A stretch of DNA of 64,000 nucleotides from a virus (taxonomy: Duplodnaviria; Caudoviricetes), in the IMG/VR virus record IMGVR_UViG_2791355159_000004, positions 10,229-74,228 of that record; one strand, written 5' to 3'. Under the pieces are notes generated by a model, which was not told the origin of the DNA, searched no databases, and worked only from the letters and a program-made list of their open reading frames with translations. Position numbers and translations under genes: made by a program. Shown here one piece after another: positions 37,792-64,000 of the stretch. Within the stretch, counting starts at the first letter, position 1. The number at the start of each line of letters is the position of its first letter.

Positions 37792-37976
37792 ATTTCCACA
37801 CAATACCAAAGGCATTGAGCGCAGACGCTTATAAGGTCTGTCCAGGACTGCAAACCTGTAGCGCCTTTCATATTGTGATAAATACCTAAATTTACCCTGT
37901 TGCCGACGGGCAAGGCTGTTACCGCGATTTGCGTCAGGGTATCTTATTGTTACTCTTTGATTTAGATTGGAGCTAA

Positions 37977-38080
37977 TGCGGTGAATCCCCCTCAGCGGCG
38001 GGGCTAGGTCAGTAGAAGTGATTGTTTAGCGACTCAGGATTCTCGCCTTACTGAGTCACCGGGAGGCACCCGGCACCGCA
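37977..38080 (+). ncRNA. Structured RNA element in the late leader (second copy of the motif)
   Basis: TGCGGTGAAT...CACCGGGAGGCACCCGGCACCGCA. Confidence 0.6.
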
Positions 38081-38129
38081 GGCTTATCACAACAATTTCA
38101 AAACCATCAGATGTTACGATCACATAGAT

Positions 38130-59239: not shown

Positions 59240-60070
59240 ATGTCAGCAGGTACGATTACTGTTACCAACGGCTCAGCAACCGTAAATGGAAGCGGAACTA
59301 GCTTCACTACAGAGTTCAAAGCTGGTGATTTCATCGGAGTGATTGCGGGAGGAACGCCTTACACGCTGGTCGTCGCGGCCATTGCATCTAATACTCAGCT
59401 CACCATTGGTGCCGCTTATACTGGACCGACAGCTAGCGGCCTTGCATGGAATGCCGTTCCCGCCAGTTTGATGTATGCCATCACCCAGCAAGCCATGAAT
59501 GATATGGGAACTGTTTTGCGTGGCATGAACCTGCAAATGAAGAACTGGCAACAGGTATACAGCGGTGCGGGGAATGTTACCGTTACACTGCCGGATTTAA
59601 CTCAGTTCACTGGGCCTTCATGGTCGAGCTTAGCTACAGGGCTAAGCAATGCACAAACCACGGCTAATGCAGCATTACCAAAATCTGGTGGATCAATATC
59701 AGGGCCGATTGCATTTGATAACGTAACTGTGCAGAGCGCCACTCTTTCGAATTTAGGTCTCAACTATATAGCAAATGATCGCTTCTCAATTTTGACGGAC
59801 GGTAACAGAAAATTCCAGATCATTAACGCCACTGTTGTGGTGACTACCAACGCCAGCGGGGACGCTACCGTAACGTATCCTACGGCATTCACCGTAGCGC
59901 CCCGGCCTGTGGCGTGTTCCGCAGACTGGGCGGCTATGAACGGTAATATTTCAACAAACAATCAAAATACCACTTACTTTCAGGTTCGTTGCTACAAGGC
60001 GGACGGATCAATAGCCGCTAACCAGTCCGTGCGCGTGGATTATACCGCCGTGGGAAGGATTTCATCATGA
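59240..60070 (+). CDS. Short side tail fibre
   Basis: MSAGTITVTNGS.TV.GSGT.F N-terminus; H-lectin/gp53-like C-terminus (YPTAF). Confidence 0.85.
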   Translation: MSAGTITVTNGSATVNGSGTSFTTEFKAGDFIGVIAGGTPYTLVVAAIASNTQLTIGAAYTGPTASGLAWNAVPASLMYAITQQAMNDMGTVLRGMNLQMKNWQQVYSGAGNVTVTLPDLTQFTGPSWSSLATGLSNAQTTANAALPKSGGSISGPIAFDNVTVQSATLSNLGLNYIANDRFSILTDGNRKFQIINATVVVTTNASGDATVTYPTAFTVAPRPVACSADWAAMNGNISTNNQNTTYFQVRCYKADGSIAANQSVRVDYTAVGRISS

Positions 60071-60516
60071 GTGAAGAGATTAATAATGCAATGGAACCAT
60101 TGCCTGATGCTAATTATTACATGCCAGGCAAGATTGGATTTTTCAATTCAATGTATCCGGATGCAGCTGCCGCTAACGGCGTGGATTTCGATAAGATGAC
60201 CAGAATACCCGACGAGGAATACCAGTCATTTATCAGTCCGCCTGAAGGGAAATATTTGGTTTTTGATGAAAGTGGGCCGCGTCTCGAAAGCATTCCAGAA
60301 CCTGACTATTTAGCTATTGCGGAAGATCAAAAGGATTCGCTGTTGTCAGCAGCCACTACGGCTATCACAGTTTGGCAAACCAAATTGCTCATGGGCCGTA
60401 CACTGACAGCCGCTGAGATGGAAAAGCTTAATGCCTGGATGGATTACATTGACGTCCTGAACGATACCGAACTGAGCGATGCTCCAGATGTTCGATGGCC
60501 GACAAAGCCAGCATAA
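60067..60516 (+). CDS. Tail fibre assembly protein
   Basis: WQTKLLMG...WMDYI...WPTKP. Confidence 0.88.
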   Translation: MSEEINNAMEPLPDANYYMPGKIGFFNSMYPDAAAANGVDFDKMTRIPDEEYQSFISPPEGKYLVFDESGPRLESIPEPDYLAIAEDQKDSLLSAATTAITVWQTKLLMGRTLTAAEMEKLNAWMDYIDVLNDTELSDAPDVRWPTKPA

Positions 60517-62810
60517 AAAAGCCCACCACTCGAGGAGAGATGGCGGGCAATGTGGTAGATAGCGAGTCATTACTGAGTCCTTTTTTCACCATACCATTTA
60601 GACAGTAGATTTACAGGCTCGACAAAGCCTGGCAGCCAACCCAGATGATGCAAGCGTAAGCGGATGAAAAAAGCCCCGGCGACGGGGCAGAGGTAGACCG
60701 CGCCCATCTTCAGTGAACTACGAGATGGGGTTTTCTCACTGTACATATTGCGGGCACAAGATGTAAATATTGACAAAAAAGCCCGCATAAAGCGGGCAAC
60801 AGAGATTGTCTTTAGATAACTGATTTCATAGGCAACACGTTGCTGTGTGTTACTTTTTAAAGATAACTCACAGGTACTGAAAAACTGTTAGGATTGCGTA
60901 AATCCTTACCATTTGTTATGCAAATTTGATACAGGAAACACGTATTAATGGGTGAACTAAACCATTATCGTGTTTAAGGGCAAATTTCAGAAGTCGTATT
61001 GGATTTGTGCCAATGATAAGTAAAAACCCGGACGGACATCCGGGGCGGCATAAGTACCAAGCCAAAATCCTTGATGAGGCATTGGCTCGGCTTGCGGCTA
61101 TGACCCTGTAAACAGAGTCGAAGTTGGAACAAATCTCTGCACACACATCAGAAAGGCAATCCTACTAAATGATTGTAACTTATGCTTAAAATCTGACTAT
61201 TAAGTTTCAGTAAAGATGCTGAAATTTTCTTGCAAGATGCAAGTATCAGCTAGGAATTATACAAAAACGGCCTGAATGCCGGGCTTGAATAGAAAAGCCC
61301 CGGCGACGGGGCAGAGGTAGACCGCGCCGATCTCAGCAGGCGGAGATGTGGGGACCACCGTACATAATTGATACATCTGATACGAATATTGAGCACAAAA
61401 AAGCCCGCACAAGGCGGGCAACAGAGAGTGTCTTTAGATTTCTAATTTCGTAGGCAACACGATGCTGTGTGTTACCTGCCAATGATAACTTACTGGTGCT
61501 AAATAGATGTTAGGATTGTGTAAATTCCTACCATAGGTGATACCAATTAAAGCGAAAGGTAAGCGGGAGAGCTACCCCTATTGAACTTTTGGTTGCTGCG
61601 GAATTTAGGCTTGCTTATATAGCACTGGGGAAATGAAAAACCCGGACGGATATCCGGGCGGCATCAGATATGAGCCTAACATTTCCAAGGAAGTTTATGC
61701 TATCTCAGTGAGAGACCCTATTGACCATAACTTATATCAAATCGGATTGCAAAATAAGTGTAGTGAAAATTTAGCTCGATTAGAGGGCAGATTTTGAAAT
61801 CATCGACGAAAGGAAAGAACCTAATAATAACATCATGTTATCATTAGATATAAAGGGATATTAAAATCCTTAAGAGAATATTTTCTACAAGATACTTTTT
61901 TTACGAGAAAATATTTACAGTATGCTAAGTGTGATATTTTATTTGAATATTAGTCAGTTTCATGGCTGTTAAAAAATCCTGCCTAAGCGAGCAAAAAAGA
62001 TTGTCTTTAAAGGCCTACTATCGTAGGCAACACGCTGCTGTGTTACCTGTGCATCCTAAGTATTGGTACTAAATTGCTATAAGGATTTTGTGAACCACGG
62101 TGCGTTTAATGGCAATCATTATTAGGCATATTTAAGAGGCTGGTTTGAAAGTCAGGAAATCCTGTAAGGGAATTGCGCTAGAAGATTTCTGTGGCGAGAG
62201 TTACCGCCAATTCAGAAACCTGCTTAACGGGGCTGTAGCCCACAGGAAGCTCTCAGGGACTCGCCTCATTGAACATAACGGTAGCGATCAAAAAACTTAA
62301 CTTCACCGCACCGGGCAAAGGTAGTGGACTCACAGTTAGCCTGATTTGTATACAGTACAGGTAATTCATGCTACAAGCCGCGAGTGGCCGTAGGGTGAGT
62401 AATGCGAATAGAAAAATAGTGGCAAGTCTGAGGCATACCGCACTTATCTAAACAGGCTACAGGACGGGTTTGATAACCCCTAAGATTCTTTAAGACGGGA
62501 GGGTAATAGCATTGCCCGGAAAAAGGCGCGGGCACCCTATGCTATGTACCCGCGCAAATGAGGTAAAACCTACTGGATTGCACTTCATGAAACAATAATC
62601 CAACCCACAGCTCCTGGTATAAAGGTCCGCACGCCATCAAGGCGGTGCGTGCAGTTTGACGCTGTGAGGTTGTCTTGTTTAGGGTTGATTTTTGATCGGG
62701 CGAGAACTAGAGACAAGAGGCCTAGGTCACAAAAAAAGCCCCGGCGACGGGGCAGAGGTAGACCGCGCCCATCTTCAGTGAACTACGGGGTGGGTGACTA
62801 AAGCTTAGCC
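60515..62810 (-). ncRNA. Array 2: about ten putative sRNA genes in five families (D,A,B,C,A,B,C,B',E,A)
   Basis: Repeated terminator-plus-seed units at 60515, 60667, 60775, 61022, 61293, 61397, 61636, 61970, 62520 and 62731; 2.3 kb with no credible ORF. Confidence 0.75.
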
Positions 62811-62901
62811 GCTCACGCCAGAACTCTCCAAAATCCCTATCACGCGACTCCTTAGCCAAAACCAAACCGCACTATCTTGATAAAAATCCTCATAAATATT
62901 A

Positions 62902-62917
62902 CTGTATATATATACAG
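62902..62917 (+). promoter_or_regulatory. LexA (SOS) box overlapping promoter -10
   Basis: CTGTATATATATACAG consensus; TTGATA-17-TACTGT. Confidence 0.92.
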
Positions 62918-62940
62918 TTATTTTTTGGAGGGAATCTGTC

Positions 62941-63177
62941 ATGCCACGCGAATACGAAAAAGAAATAGCTTTCAAAAATGCCATCAAAAGAGACCCGCAG
63001 GGGCGCTATACCGTAACAACTGTCGATTTTGTTGAAGAACTCGCAAAGCTGAACTGGCAGCTAACGCTGAAAGAAGCCAACCGCTGGGTAGAGATTTACA
63101 CGTCTACATTCCGTGACGTATCCACGAAAGAAGGTGAAGAGCGGACTTTCCAAGTTTTCAACCCTAACGGCGGATGA
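62941..63177 (+). CDS. SOS-inducible small protein upstream of the umuD-like gene
   Basis: GGAGG RBS; directly downstream of the LexA box. Confidence 0.8.
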   Translation: MPREYEKEIAFKNAIKRDPQGRYTVTTVDFVEELAKLNWQLTLKEANRWVEIYTSTFRDVSTKEGEERTFQVFNPNGG

Positions 63178-63181
63178 TGAC

Positions 63182-63502
63182 ATGGGGTTTCAATCGCCAG
63201 CACAGGACTATATCCAGCGTCGCCTGACCGTTACAGATTTTGTCGTGCATAACCCTGCAGCTACGCTGTTCATCGAAATGGATGAAGGCATGCTGGTTGT
63301 TGACCGTTCTGTACCGGTTAAAAGAGGAGACAGAGTTGCTCTTGTTCATGAAGGCATGTCGATTCTGGCGCGAACCGGCGATCGCTGCATCATCACCGAT
63401 GATGGACAGAGGATCGCAGGAGAGGCACTCGATGATGTCATCGTATTGGGCAAAGTGACTTACGAAATCATGAGCGTCTGGCGTGACAATGGGCCGGTAT
63501 AG
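63182..63502 (+). CDS. UmuD'/HumD-like protein
   Basis: MGFQSPAQDY start, LVVDRS and GKVT motifs; lacks the GxSM segment. Confidence 0.8.
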   Translation: MGFQSPAQDYIQRRLTVTDFVVHNPAATLFIEMDEGMLVVDRSVPVKRGDRVALVHEGMSILARTGDRCIITDDGQRIAGEALDDVIVLGKVTYEIMSVWRDNGPV

Positions 63503-63619
63503 CCCTCAACAGGCTGTGCGCTCACTGGCTAGTTTTGCCACTGTTTCGCCATGGTTTTACCATTCCAGATTGCAGGCATAAAAAAAGCAGCCTTAACAGG
63601 CTGCTTTAGTTGGGAATTT

Positions 63620-63664
63620 TGGTCGGCACGAGAGGATTTGAACCTCCGACCCCTGACACCCCAT
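63620..63664 (-). other. 3' half of tRNA-Pro(GGG) (proL-type att core), followed by a terminator at 63580-63607
   Basis: Reverse complement ATGGGGTGTCAGGGGTCGGAGGTTCAAATCCTCTCGTGCCGACCA; the 5' half is absent. Confidence 0.88.
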
Positions 63665-63676
63665 AACAGGAAGCTA

Positions 63677-64000
63677 TCAGTGCTTAGGCATGTAACGGCA
63701 TAAGCTGTCGTAAAGGCCGATAATTTTACCAACAACACTGCTTCTTTCTAATTCATCCATAGCATTCACGGCCGCATTCACACGACCTTCAGCTGCATTT
63801 GAAGCAGTCATCAATGCAACGATCTCTTCAAAGTCATCATGTAATTCCTCTGGAATATCGTTGTCCCGCCGCAAATGAATAATGCTAAAGACGTAAGCAT
63901 TTTCAAGCCTTTCTTGAATGCTTCCCTCGCCTGCGAGAGAAAGCACGGCTGAATGGAACTTCTCCCATGCATATCGGTATTTAAAAAAATCATCGACCAT
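63677..64000 (-). CDS. Hypothetical helical protein (may extend beyond the window)
   Basis: 107-aa ORF reaching the window edge. Confidence 0.6.
   Translation of the reverse strand: MVDDFFKYRYAWEKFHSAVLSLAGEGSIQERLENAYVFSIIHLRRDNDIPEELHDDFEEIVALMTASNAAEGRVNAAVNAMDELERSSVVGKIIGLYDSLCRYMPKH

What the first reader, a model, noticed from the sequence alone, without database searches (positions are those of the whole stretch)
60515..62810. A 2.3-kb protein-free array of about ten small RNA genes at the tail end of prophage 2
Seen: minus-strand units, each with a -10-like hexamer, a 60-160-nt body, a GC hairpin and a U run. The order is D(60515) A(60667) B(60775) C(61022) A(61293) B(61397) C(61636) B'(61970) E(62520) A(62731). 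The A-B-C block repeats with a ~620-bp period. Within copies, terminators and short single-stranded motifs are conserved while spacers have diverged, as expected for selection on RNA function. Established: EHEC lambdoid prophages encode single Hfq-binding anti-sRNAs (AgvB, AsxR). Inference: this is a multiplexed, duplicated cassette array of sRNAs or sponges that rewires host post-transcriptional regulation. I do not know of a described array of this size.
Basis: partly seen in the sequence, partly recalled or inferred. Interest (0 to 1): 0.9.

Follow-up and report, generated by a model that had tools for sequence, protein, structure and literature searches.

The report
Small-RNA cassette array in Pantoea prophage
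A 2.4-kb gene-free stretch behind the tail-fibre genes of a Pantoea prophage holds about nine short promoter-to-terminator units, two kinds of which recur as conserved, unannotated RNA genes in many other Pantoea phages, so it is probably a bank of phage small RNAs, although no expression data exist yet.

Summary
Window 60517-62940 has no ORF above 76 aa. It carries nine strong intrinsic terminators, all on the minus strand, and none as strong on the plus strand. The ~622-bp A-B-C repeat is real.

The host is Pantoea, not EHEC.

- **Unit A** (~65 nt, 3 copies plus a decayed fourth) matches 79 IMG/VR contigs and 37 of 75 Pantoea species genomes. It is nearly absent outside the genus and is not in Rfam. 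A -10-like hexamer sits at a fixed distance despite 39 different upstream sequences.
- **Unit B** (~80 nt) is a phage copy of an RNA gene that is chromosomal and syntenic in a Pantoea subclade. The phage copies use a different promoter.
- **C and D** recur in a few phages. **E** plus about 650 nt are orphans. B3 and the fourth A copy are decayed.

Units are shuffled between phages and between this prophage's two arrays.

Best reading (0.6): a modular array of lysogen-expressed sRNA genes. Hfq binding, sponging and host targets are untested or unsupported, and no RNA run was listed.

The scan had already noted this stretch (e1-6227338, e1-6227339) and the second array (e1-6225927).

The parts
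60510..60592 (-). Unit D. The terminator hairpin is at 60521-60548 and its U-run (60515-60520) overlaps the stop codon of the tail-fibre assembly gene. The conserved core is 60512-60567. The 5' end is not defined.
   Evidence: Hairpin dG -17.9. Fold z -2.99. Copies at 91% identity at window 25372-25427 and G000:C6:9771-9827, and in L067. By my reading of the sequences printed, the stem shows a change on both sides between the copies (C-G versus U-A).
60667..60733 (-). Unit A1, an A-family RNA. Terminator at 60673-60688. The 5' part is altered relative to A3. A promoter-like site lies at 60767-60738.
   Evidence: Model R1 70.2 bits. Terminator. Promoter-like TTTACA-18-TACAGT. Fold z -1.47.
60776..60856 (-). 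Unit B1, a B-family RNA: a 5' stem-loop with an 8-nt loop (7 pairs in the fold of B1, 9 in B2), about 30 nt single-stranded, then a terminator at 60781-60797.
   Evidence: Model R2 105.8 bits. Fold z -3.11. Alignment with the chromosomal and phage copies.
61022..61165 (-). Unit C1. Terminator at 61027-61044. A promoter-like site at 61199-61172 would give an RNA of about 143 nt. The 3' 90 nt (61022-61110) is the conserved part.
   Evidence: Terminator and TAGTCA-16-TACAAT. Four other loci cover 61020-61110. L068 aligns over 60773-61243 at 80.5%. Fold z -2.78.
61291..61352 (-). Unit A2, an A-family RNA with a distinct 5' end. Terminator at 61297-61312.
   Evidence: Model R1 71.1 bits. A near-identical copy lies in IMG/VR contig L053. 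Fold z -1.68.
61398..61478 (-). Unit B2, a B-family RNA. Terminator at 61403-61419.
   Evidence: Model R2 111.4 bits. Fold z -3.43, with 0 of 200 shuffles as stable.
61636..61722 (-). Unit C2. Terminator at 61640-61659. The conserved part is about 61625-61695. The 5' end is uncertain; the nearest scan promoter (61963-61936) would give about 290 nt.
   Evidence: Terminator. Five other loci cover 61620-61695. Fold z -1.88.
61971..62050 (-). Unit B3, a B copy with an intact 5' stem-loop but a decayed terminator. It is probably a pseudo-unit or a read-through form.
   Evidence: Model R2 74.9 bits. No terminator hairpin in the fold. Kept at about 95% in L053.
62409..62475 (-). Decayed fourth A copy with no terminator.
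   Evidence: Model R1 26.3 bits, E 5.1e-5. Fold z +0.84.
62518..62640 (-). Unit E, an orphan. It has a 10-bp hairpin at 62526-62555 followed by a U5 run. The body and promoter are undefined.
   Evidence: Hairpin dG -18.8. No homologue in 74 other Pantoea genomes or in the fetched loci. Fold z -0.44. Present in near-identical DNA contigs of runs X1, X4 and X5.
62732..62801 (-). Unit A3, the canonical A-family RNA. Terminator at 62738-62753. It is transcribed divergently from the LexA-box operon.
   Evidence: Model R1 77.4 bits. The LexA box lies 149 nt from its GCGCGG motif, inside the 147-157 nt class seen in 41 of 71 viral loci.
62902..62917 (.). LexA (SOS) box of the form CTGT-N8-ACAG, inside a 22-nt palindrome. 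It marks the edge of the array.
   Evidence: Inverted repeat I1 and the sequence itself. That this motif is the LexA box consensus is recalled knowledge.
62941..63502 (+). Two-gene operon behind the LexA box: a 78-aa protein (phrog_3893, unknown function) and a 106-aa UmuD-like protein (63182-63502). It flanks the array and is not part of it.
   Evidence: PHROGs E 6.3e-30 and 4e-25. Pantoea phage AH07 has the same layout: tail-fibre assembly gene, moron, A unit, LexA box, this pair, integrase.
60067..60516 (+). Tail-fibre assembly gene, the last late gene. It is convergent with the array.
   Evidence: Pfam Caudo_TAP E 2.6e-22. phrog_188 E 1.7e-29.

Best explanation
The stretch is a moron-like bank of stand-alone small-RNA genes. 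It sits in the non-essential slot between the tail-fibre assembly gene and the SOS-controlled operon next to the attachment site of a lambdoid Pantoea prophage.

Each intact unit (D, A1, B1, C1, A2, B2, C2, E, A3) has its own intrinsic terminator. For A and B at least, each also has its own sigma-70-type promoter. All units point against the late operon, so they can be made in the lysogen while the late genes are silent (inferred).

- **A** is a phage-specific RNA of about 65 nt. It has a short C-rich 5' end, one stem-loop, a linker and a nearly invariant terminator. The three copies share the 3' scaffold and differ at the 5' end.
- **B** is a phage-borne copy of an ~80-nt RNA gene that is chromosomal in a Pantoea subclade. 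The phage copies sit behind a different promoter with a GGATT-N5-AATCC palindrome. The phage would therefore supply that host RNA under its own control (inferred).

The array grew by recombination at shared units between phages carrying different cassette sets. It also decays: B3, the fourth A copy and perhaps E.

**Shown:** the anatomy, unit-wise conservation, promoter geometry for A, and the shuffling.
**Inferred:** transcription in the lysogen, base-pairing with or without Hfq, and effects on the host.
For: 1. **Terminators.** Nine strong terminators sit on one strand in an ORF-free 2.4 kb. The scan found 11 against 3.7 +/- 2.2 expected.
2. **A is conserved as a unit.**
   - 79 IMG/VR contigs match, 77 of them unique over -80 to +40.
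   - 37 of 75 Pantoea species genomes match, with 1-5 copies each. Among one genome per other genus of the family, 1 of 150 matches. In the rest of the order, 0 of 150 match.
3. **A has a positioned promoter.** Among 71 unique upstream sequences, which fall into 39 classes below 70% identity, 63 TAnnnT hexamers start 36-40 nt before the GCGCGG motif. Upstream positions outside this peak have at most 7.
4. **A stem 1 is structurally constrained.** It is paired in 97.2% of cells, against 37-48% when the partner is slid. All variation is C<->U opposite G, which keeps pairing only on the terminator-bearing strand. On matches found without the fixed pattern, 3 pairs change on both sides (5 cells; 1 of 500 shuffles reaches this). 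The stem-plus-terminator fold beats the alternative in 72 of 72 sequences.
5. **B is an independent RNA gene.** Chromosomal copies in G000 C26 and 6 other species keep 88-93% identity over the RNA while the flanks diverge. They have their own -10 element. Phage copies share a different 60-nt upstream block. Fold z is -3.1 and -3.4.
6. **Cassettes move as units.**
   - L067 has D, then a unit of this prophage's other array (25733-25904), then A3.
   - L074 and L041 have the tail-fibre assembly gene, A, then unit 25546-25722.
   - L024 has A, a C2-like unit, then unit 25218-25328.
   - L053 and L068 each carry one of the two blocks.
7. **Homology peaks on the units.** Homology to other loci peaks on the units and falls to 0-2 loci in the spacers. 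That set of loci was fetched through A or B, so the map is biased towards them.
8. **Base composition.** GC is 0.41-0.47, against 0.51-0.60 in the structural genes upstream.
Against: - There is no expression evidence of any kind.
- Covariation is thin. In the large A set, the 3' arm and the terminator were fixed by the search pattern. The second alignment was fitted to the model.
- A fold z-scores are only -1.3 to -1.7. For A3, the minimum-energy fold is not the terminator form.
- E and 62060-62725 are orphans, and E is no more structured than shuffles (z -0.44).
- C1 and C2 share little beyond the terminator.
- Two units are decayed, and the 622-bp block is missing or replaced in near-identical DNA. 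Not every unit is therefore under selection.
- No target was found: B against GcvB, and A against the neighbouring operon's leader, were no better than shuffles.
- Strong DNA conservation of A at module junctions could partly reflect recombination rather than RNA function.
Confidence: 0.6

Rival explanations
1. Terminator stack plus debris. The functional parts are only the minus-strand terminators. They insulate the late operon from antisense transcription that enters from the attachment-site side or from the divergent SOS promoter region. The bodies are remnants of lost morons.
For: All terminators point the same way, against the late genes. C1 and C2 share mainly the hairpin. E, B3 and the fourth A copy look decayed or orphan. 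In phage AH07 the same slot holds a protein moron, an acyltransferase.
Against: One or two terminators would be enough for insulation. The bodies of A and B, and the position of A's -10 element, are conserved far beyond the hairpin across dozens of unrelated flanks. B also exists as a stand-alone chromosomal gene far from any phage.
Confidence: 0.15
2. Phage-directed RNAs. The units act on phage transcripts. They could be antisense or trans regulators of the convergent tail-fibre or late mRNA, or of incoming related phages. The second case would be superinfection exclusion like STnc6030 of Salmonella phage BTP1. They would not rewire the host.
For: The units are convergent with the late operon and abut the tail-fibre assembly gene, and D's U-run overlaps its stop codon. 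A is confined to Pantoea phages and prophages. It usually sits at a fixed distance from an SOS-controlled operon (41 of 71). An antisense, tailspike-directed exclusion RNA is described in passages of the review PMC12197685.
Against: The units terminate before entering the tail-fibre assembly gene. No extended complementarity to the neighbouring operon's leader was found (mean z -0.18 over 40 pairs). B has a chromosomal counterpart, which argues for a host-side role for that family.
Confidence: 0.15
3. Recombination linkers. The conserved 40-90-nt blocks persist because they are crossover points that shuffle phage modules, not because of what their RNA does.
For: A lies at junctions between unrelated flanks. 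Run X6 has a contig that joins 60772 to 61395 with 15 shared letters, which is a crossover between B1 and B2. The two blocks resemble different phages.
Against: This does not explain the fixed -10 position in 39 unrelated upstream classes. It does not explain strand-specific wobble-only variation in stem 1. It does not explain a syntenic chromosomal B gene. Linker and RNA roles are not exclusive.
Confidence: 0.08

Closest known systems
EHEC prophage anti-sRNAs AgvB and AsxR (EcOnc01-03; Tree et al. 2014, PMC4104026; passages read)
   Same: Both are short prophage-encoded RNAs with several related copies per genome. Both have a highly conserved 3' region and variable 5' ends. Both are convergent with a phage operon at a site that tolerates moron insertions.
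   Different: The Rfam models RF02702 and RF02703 gave no match here at E <= 10. The EHEC RNAs are 51-60 nt and lie as convergent pairs just after PR'. A is about 65 nt and lies behind the tail-fibre genes, next to an SOS operon, in Pantoea. Sponging is shown for AgvB and AsxR and is untested here. The EHEC loci hold pairs, not 9-11 units.
Pas sRNAs and STnc100 of E. coli prophages (Zhu, Shabalina, Storz 2026 preprint, 10.64898/2026.05.13.724894; abstract and sections 15 and 17 read)
   Same: Both are prophage-borne sRNA families with variable copy number, sequence variants and linkage created by recombination. This window also has an STnc100 match, at 37946-38121.
   Different: The Pas genes sit near Q, the lysis genes and an esterase gene, and are largely restricted to Escherichia and Shigella. 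They are single genes or linked pairs, not a gene-free multi-unit array.
STnc6030 of Salmonella prophage BTP1 (as described in the review PMC12197685; passage read)
   Same: Both are prophage sRNAs at the tail end of the late region, on the strand opposite to the tail genes.
   Different: STnc6030 is antisense to the tailspike gene and acts by that overlap. The units here stop at the gene's end, and no overlap or target was found.
Morons of lambdoid phages (Juhala et al. 2000, as cited in PMC4104026)
   Same: Both are autonomous promoter-to-terminator cassettes of lower GC, inserted between essential modules and exchanged between phages.
   Different: Classical morons encode proteins. Here the cassettes appear to encode only RNA, and many are stacked.

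Membership tests
Stand-alone trans-acting sRNA gene (enterobacterial type) | Own promoter at a fixed distance from a conserved 5' end | tested here: met
   Met for A: 63 TAnnnT hexamers at -40 to -36 in 71 unique upstream sequences of 39 classes. For B it rests on inspection only: a -10-like hexamer is aligned in chromosomal and phage copies. It was not established for C2, D or E.
Stand-alone trans-acting sRNA gene (enterobacterial type) | Intrinsic terminator with a 3' U-run | tested here: met
   Nine units meet it. B3 and the fourth A copy do not.
Stand-alone trans-acting sRNA gene (enterobacterial type) | Discrete transcript of the predicted size | not testable with these tools
   No RNA run could be examined for this stretch.
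Stand-alone trans-acting sRNA gene (enterobacterial type) | Binding to Hfq or ProQ | not testable with these tools
   Only sequence is available. U/C-rich stretches precede the terminators of A and B, which is suggestive and nothing more.
Stand-alone trans-acting sRNA gene (enterobacterial type) | Conserved structure supported by covariation | tested here: inconclusive
   A stem 1 is 97% paired with wobble-only changes. Three pairs change on both sides in a model-fitted alignment. The B stems are invariant in 12 sequences.
Stand-alone trans-acting sRNA gene (enterobacterial type) | Identified base-pairing target | tested here: inconclusive
   Two crude duplex tests were no better than shuffles. 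No genome-wide target prediction was run.
AgvB / AsxR anti-sRNA families (RF02702, RF02703) | Match to the Rfam covariance model | tested here: not met
   Neither family appears among the 18 matches at E <= 10 in 60300-63700. Nothing in the region reaches a gathering score.
AgvB / AsxR anti-sRNA families (RF02702, RF02703) | Position in the moron site 3' of PR', as convergent pairs | tested here: not met
   The array follows the tail-fibre assembly gene, about 22 kb downstream of the STnc100-type site at 37946.
AgvB / AsxR anti-sRNA families (RF02702, RF02703) | Mimics the target site of a core sRNA such as GcvB | tested here: inconclusive
   Duplex energies of all 11 units against this genome's GcvB (C20:32551-32748) were within the shuffled range, apart from C1 (z -1.88). 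This is a crude test of full-length duplexes.
IsrK (RF01394), RseX (RF01401), Trp leader (RF00513), considered for unit B | Score at or above the family's gathering score | tested here: not met
   Scores against gathering scores were 19.0 and 17.4 against 50, 24.1 against 50, and 25.6 against 41.
Type I toxin-antitoxin or small-protein repeats | A small ORF kept in the repeat copies and in relatives | tested here: not met
   No ORF is shared by the copies. The 76-aa ORF 60916-61146 is broken in the L068 homologue. There were 0 of 10 PHROGs hits.

The most novel reading that the evidence does not exclude
Temperate Pantoea phages keep a shared, shuffled library of RNA-only morons at two hot spots: behind the tail-fibre genes and in the early-left operon. 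The library includes a phage-specific scaffold RNA (A) with exchangeable 5' ends. It also includes a hijacked copy of a host sRNA (B) re-wired to a phage-chosen regulator. A single prophage can stack about 15 such genes into post-transcriptional 'conversion islands' that reprogram the lysogen.
Probability: 0.3. Interest if true: 0.8.

Novelty: new variant of a known kind. Interest (0 to 1): 0.62.

Why it matters
Prophage sRNAs are known mostly as single genes or pairs in E. coli and Salmonella. If these units are expressed, three things follow.

- RNA-only cassettes can be stacked and traded like protein morons.
- Two new, easily testable RNA families become available. A occurs in about half of the sampled Pantoea species. 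B has host and phage versions of the same RNA under different promoters.
- Pantoea, a genus of plant-associated and opportunistic bacteria, gains a tractable case of phage control over host post-transcriptional regulation.

The fixed pairing of A with a LexA-box operon also suggests a link to prophage induction that can be tested directly.

Tried and rejected
**Searches that found nothing**
- megablast of the region against E. coli genomes gave no match.
- Rfam gave nothing at gathering score in the region or in 7 related loci. There were only sub-threshold hits.
- no RNA holder was listed for this stretch, so expression could not be examined.
- earlier findings searched by sequence gave nothing.

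**Tests with no support**
- B as a GcvB sponge gave z +0.57 (B1), -0.65 (B2) and +0.48 (chromosomal copy). This is no support. duplexfold on full-length RNAs is crude.
- A against the leader of the neighbouring LexA-box operon, over 40 unique pairs, gave mean z -0.18. This is no support.
- RNAalifold proposed an alternative A fold in which GGCGCGG pairs with the terminator's 5' half. That suggested an attenuator-like switch. It was less stable than the stem-plus-terminator fold in 72 of 72 sequences and was dropped as the main model. It is nevertheless the minimum-energy fold of A3 itself.

**Chance hit**
- ORF 60916-61146 hit Pfam Gallidermin at 21.7 bits against a cut-off of 21. I judged it chance. 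The matching 'PGC' stretch is the translated terminator hairpin. The ORF is broken in the L068 homologue. No ORF of 90 aa or more lies in 60517-62940. The wider flanks were not searched for lanthipeptide modification genes.

**Run contigs**
- run X4 gave no contig over 60770-61240. No contig joins across that gap, so it is not used as evidence. Only the X6 and X5 joints are used.

**Literature**
- three searches found no paper that describes a multi-unit sRNA array in an enterobacterial prophage, or these two families. That is the limit of my 'not in print' claim.
- PMC6749038 lists 615 putative P. ananatis sRNAs with sequences in its Supplementary Table S2.

**Not attempted**
- Genome-wide target prediction.
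- Searches for C1, C2 and D in the genus with their own models.
- Protein searches of the large databases.
Full report
**What is there.** The window holds two prophages. The second runs from about 21000 to about 63650. Its late genes are on the plus strand and end with a tail-fibre gene and a tail-fibre assembly gene (60067-60516; Caudo_TAP; phrog_188).

From 60517 to 62940 no ORF exceeds 76 aa. GC falls to 0.41-0.47, against 0.51-0.60 in the structural genes. The next genes are a 78-aa protein of unknown function and a UmuD-like protein (62941-63502). They lie behind a perfect CTGT-N8-ACAG palindrome at 62902-62917. That this motif is a LexA box is recalled knowledge.

**Check of the observation.** The consensus scan of 60000-63700 found 11 terminator-like sites, against 3.7 +/- 2.2 in shuffles. 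All are on the minus strand. A ViennaRNA-based finder of my own gave nine minus-strand hairpin + U-run sites with dG <= -10.8 inside the region, and none that strong on the plus strand.

The repeat families and the ~622-nt period are confirmed. There are three corrections:
- B' (61971-62050) keeps the B body but has lost its terminator.
- A covariance model found a fourth, decayed A copy at 62409-62475.
- C1 and C2 align well only around the terminator.

**Organism.** Nothing matched in 5,426 E. coli genomes. The only phage record hit was Pantoea phage AH07. Record titles of genomes carrying the B core are Pantoea species.

**Unit A.** A pattern built from the A core matched 79 IMG/VR contigs, once each, with 77 distinct sequences over -80 to +40.

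A covariance model (R1) gave these counts:

| Sample | Genomes with a match |
|---|---|
| Pantoea species genomes (incl. own; 1-5 copies each) | 37 of 75 |
| One genome per other genus of the family | 1 of 150 |
| Rest of the order | 0 of 150 |

A is therefore a patchy, mobile, Pantoea-phage element. It is not in Rfam 15.

The upstream sequences fall into 39 classes below 70% identity. Even so, 63 TAnnnT hexamers among 71 unique upstream sequences start 36-40 nt before the GCGCGG motif, while upstream positions outside this peak have at most 7. That places a -10 element about 7 nt before a conserved C-rich 5' end, and it is the strongest sign of a real transcription unit.

The predicted RNA has a 7-nt single-stranded 5' end, a 7-bp stem with one bulge, a 9-nt linker, a terminator and a U-run.
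- Stem 1 is paired in 97.2% of cells, against 37-48% when partners are slid. It varies only by C<->U opposite G.
- The 3' arm was fixed by my search pattern, so changes on both sides could not appear in that set.
- On 40 distinct matches found with the model instead, 3 pairs change on both sides. That alignment is fitted to the model.
- An alternative fold proposed by RNAalifold is less stable in 72 of 72 sequences.

In 41 of 71 viral loci a LexA-like box lies 147-157 nt upstream of A. The same is true of A3 here and of phage AH07. The canonical home of A is therefore divergent from this SOS-controlled operon. In AH07 the order is tail-fibre assembly gene, acyltransferase moron, A, LexA box, the same two genes, integrase. 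The array thus occupies a known moron slot.

The three copies here share the 3' 45 nt and differ in the first 12-20 nt.

**Unit B.** B1 and B2 (and B3 with a decayed end) are 87-89% identical to a sequence on another contig of the same genome (C26:293996-294080). There it lies between a 497-aa hydrolase-like ORF and a membrane-protein ORF. Orthologous copies with conserved downstream flanks exist in other Pantoea species.

Model R2 found B in 8 of 75 Pantoea species genomes including this one. It is clade-restricted, not genus-wide.

Chromosomal copies share one upstream block with a -10-like hexamer. Phage copies (this window, L053, L068) share another. That block includes a GGATT-N5-AATCC palindrome about 45-60 nt before the RNA start and has a poor -35 (my reading). 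B folds into a 5' stem-loop, about 30 single-stranded nt and a terminator, with z -3.1 and -3.4. Which way the gene moved, from host to phage or the reverse, is unknown.

**Other units.**
- **D** recurs at 91% identity in the prophage's other array (25372-25427) and on contig C6, and also in L067.
- **C1:** its 3' 90 nt recur in 4 loci. **C2:** its 3' 70 nt recur in 5 loci. L068 aligns with B1+C1 over 472 nt at 80.5%.
- **E** and 62060-62725 have no homologue in 74 other Pantoea genomes. E is no more structured than shuffles. It is carried unchanged in near-identical DNA of three runs.

**Modularity.** Comparison with the fetched phage contigs shows the units moving independently:
- L053 has the tail-fibre genes followed directly by A2-B2-C2-B3 (95.4% over 915 nt) and lacks block 1.
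- L067 has D, a unit from this prophage's early-left array, then A3.
- L074 and L041 have the tail-fibre assembly gene, A, and another early-left unit.
- L024 has A, a C2-like unit and a third early-left unit.

That early-left array (25218-26117; six further minus-strand terminators, seen and noted earlier as e1-6225927) therefore draws on the same cassette pool.

Among 79 viral loci, 19 have two or more, and 8 have three or four, same-strand terminators in the ORF-free stretch around A. Other Pantoea genomes show clusters of 2-5. This array is the largest I saw.

The 622-bp block is unstable. A contig of run X6 joins 60772 to 61395 with 15 shared letters. A contig of X5 replaces 60558-61293 with 236 other letters. 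The two blocks are too diverged in their spacers to be a recent duplication. They match different phages, so stacking by recombination at shared units is the simplest account (inference).

**How it probably works.** Each intact unit is an autonomous RNA gene that points against the late operon. In a lysogen the late operon is off, so the RNAs could accumulate. During lytic growth, late read-through would be antisense to them (inference from layout). A's constant 3' scaffold with variable 5' ends mirrors what Tree et al. describe for the EHEC anti-sRNAs (passages of PMC4104026), but A does not match their models. B would add copies of a host RNA under phage control. I could not show targets, chaperone binding or expression.

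**Rivals.**
- A terminator or insulator stack with debris explains E and the decayed copies. It does not explain A's promoter geometry or B's chromosomal gene.
- A phage-directed role, such as exclusion or late-gene control, fits the position and the Pantoea-phage restriction of A and remains open.
- Recombination linkers may add to the DNA conservation of A, but they do not explain the strand-specific constraints.

**Novelty.** Prophage sRNAs and RNA-bearing moron sites are known. Three literature searches and Rfam turned up neither these families nor an array of this size. I could not see the supplementary sRNA list of the P. ananatis study (PMC6749038). I rate it a new variant of a known kind, of moderate to high interest, resting on comparative evidence only.

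Noticed in passing
window 62902-62917 and 62941-63502: A perfect LexA-type box precedes a 78-aa protein (phrog_3893, unknown function) and a UmuD-like protein at the prophage end. The same module sits next to the integrase in Pantoea phage AH07. It is a candidate SOS-triggered induction (antirepressor-type) module, and in the circular phage it may read on into the integrase gene.
   Followed up: partly
window 25218-26117 (minus strand): A second ORF-free array of six GCCCGC-type terminators lies in the early-left region of the same prophage. It shares unit D with the tail-end array, and three of its units sit next to A in other phage contigs (L067, L024, L074, L041).
   Followed up: partly
window 60880-60900, 61505-61525, 62085-62105 (upstream of B1, B2, B3): A GGATT-N5-AATCC palindrome is conserved about 45-60 nt before each phage-borne B copy, here and in L053 and L068. 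It is absent from the chromosomal B promoters. It is a likely binding site for an unknown regulator.
   Followed up: partly
G000:C26:293996-294080: A chromosomal, syntenic B-family RNA gene lies between a hydrolase-like ORF and a membrane-protein ORF. It is found in 8 of 75 Pantoea species genomes and is not in Rfam.
   Followed up: partly
window 60916-61146 (minus strand): A 76-aa ORF across the C1 terminator scores just above the Pfam Gallidermin cut-off (21.7 against 21 bits). The ORF is not kept in the L068 homologue, so this is probably chance.
   Followed up: yes
window 63620-63668 (minus strand): A fragment that looks like the 3' end of a tRNA (T-arm and acceptor end) lies just past the UmuD-like gene. 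ARAGORN does not call it. It is probably the attachment-site duplicate that marks the prophage end. It differs from the tRNA-Arg at 20826-20900.
   Followed up: partly
window 37946-38121 (plus strand): An STnc100 match (59.3 bits, above the gathering score) lies in the region between the early and late genes of prophage 2. This is the class of prophage sRNA site known from E. coli and Salmonella.
   Followed up: no
L154 = G079:C12:703000-707500: Another Pantoea genome has an ORF-free stretch of about 3.2 kb that holds an A copy, a B-like copy (52 bits) and further same-strand terminators. It is a second multi-unit array worth comparing.
   Followed up: partly
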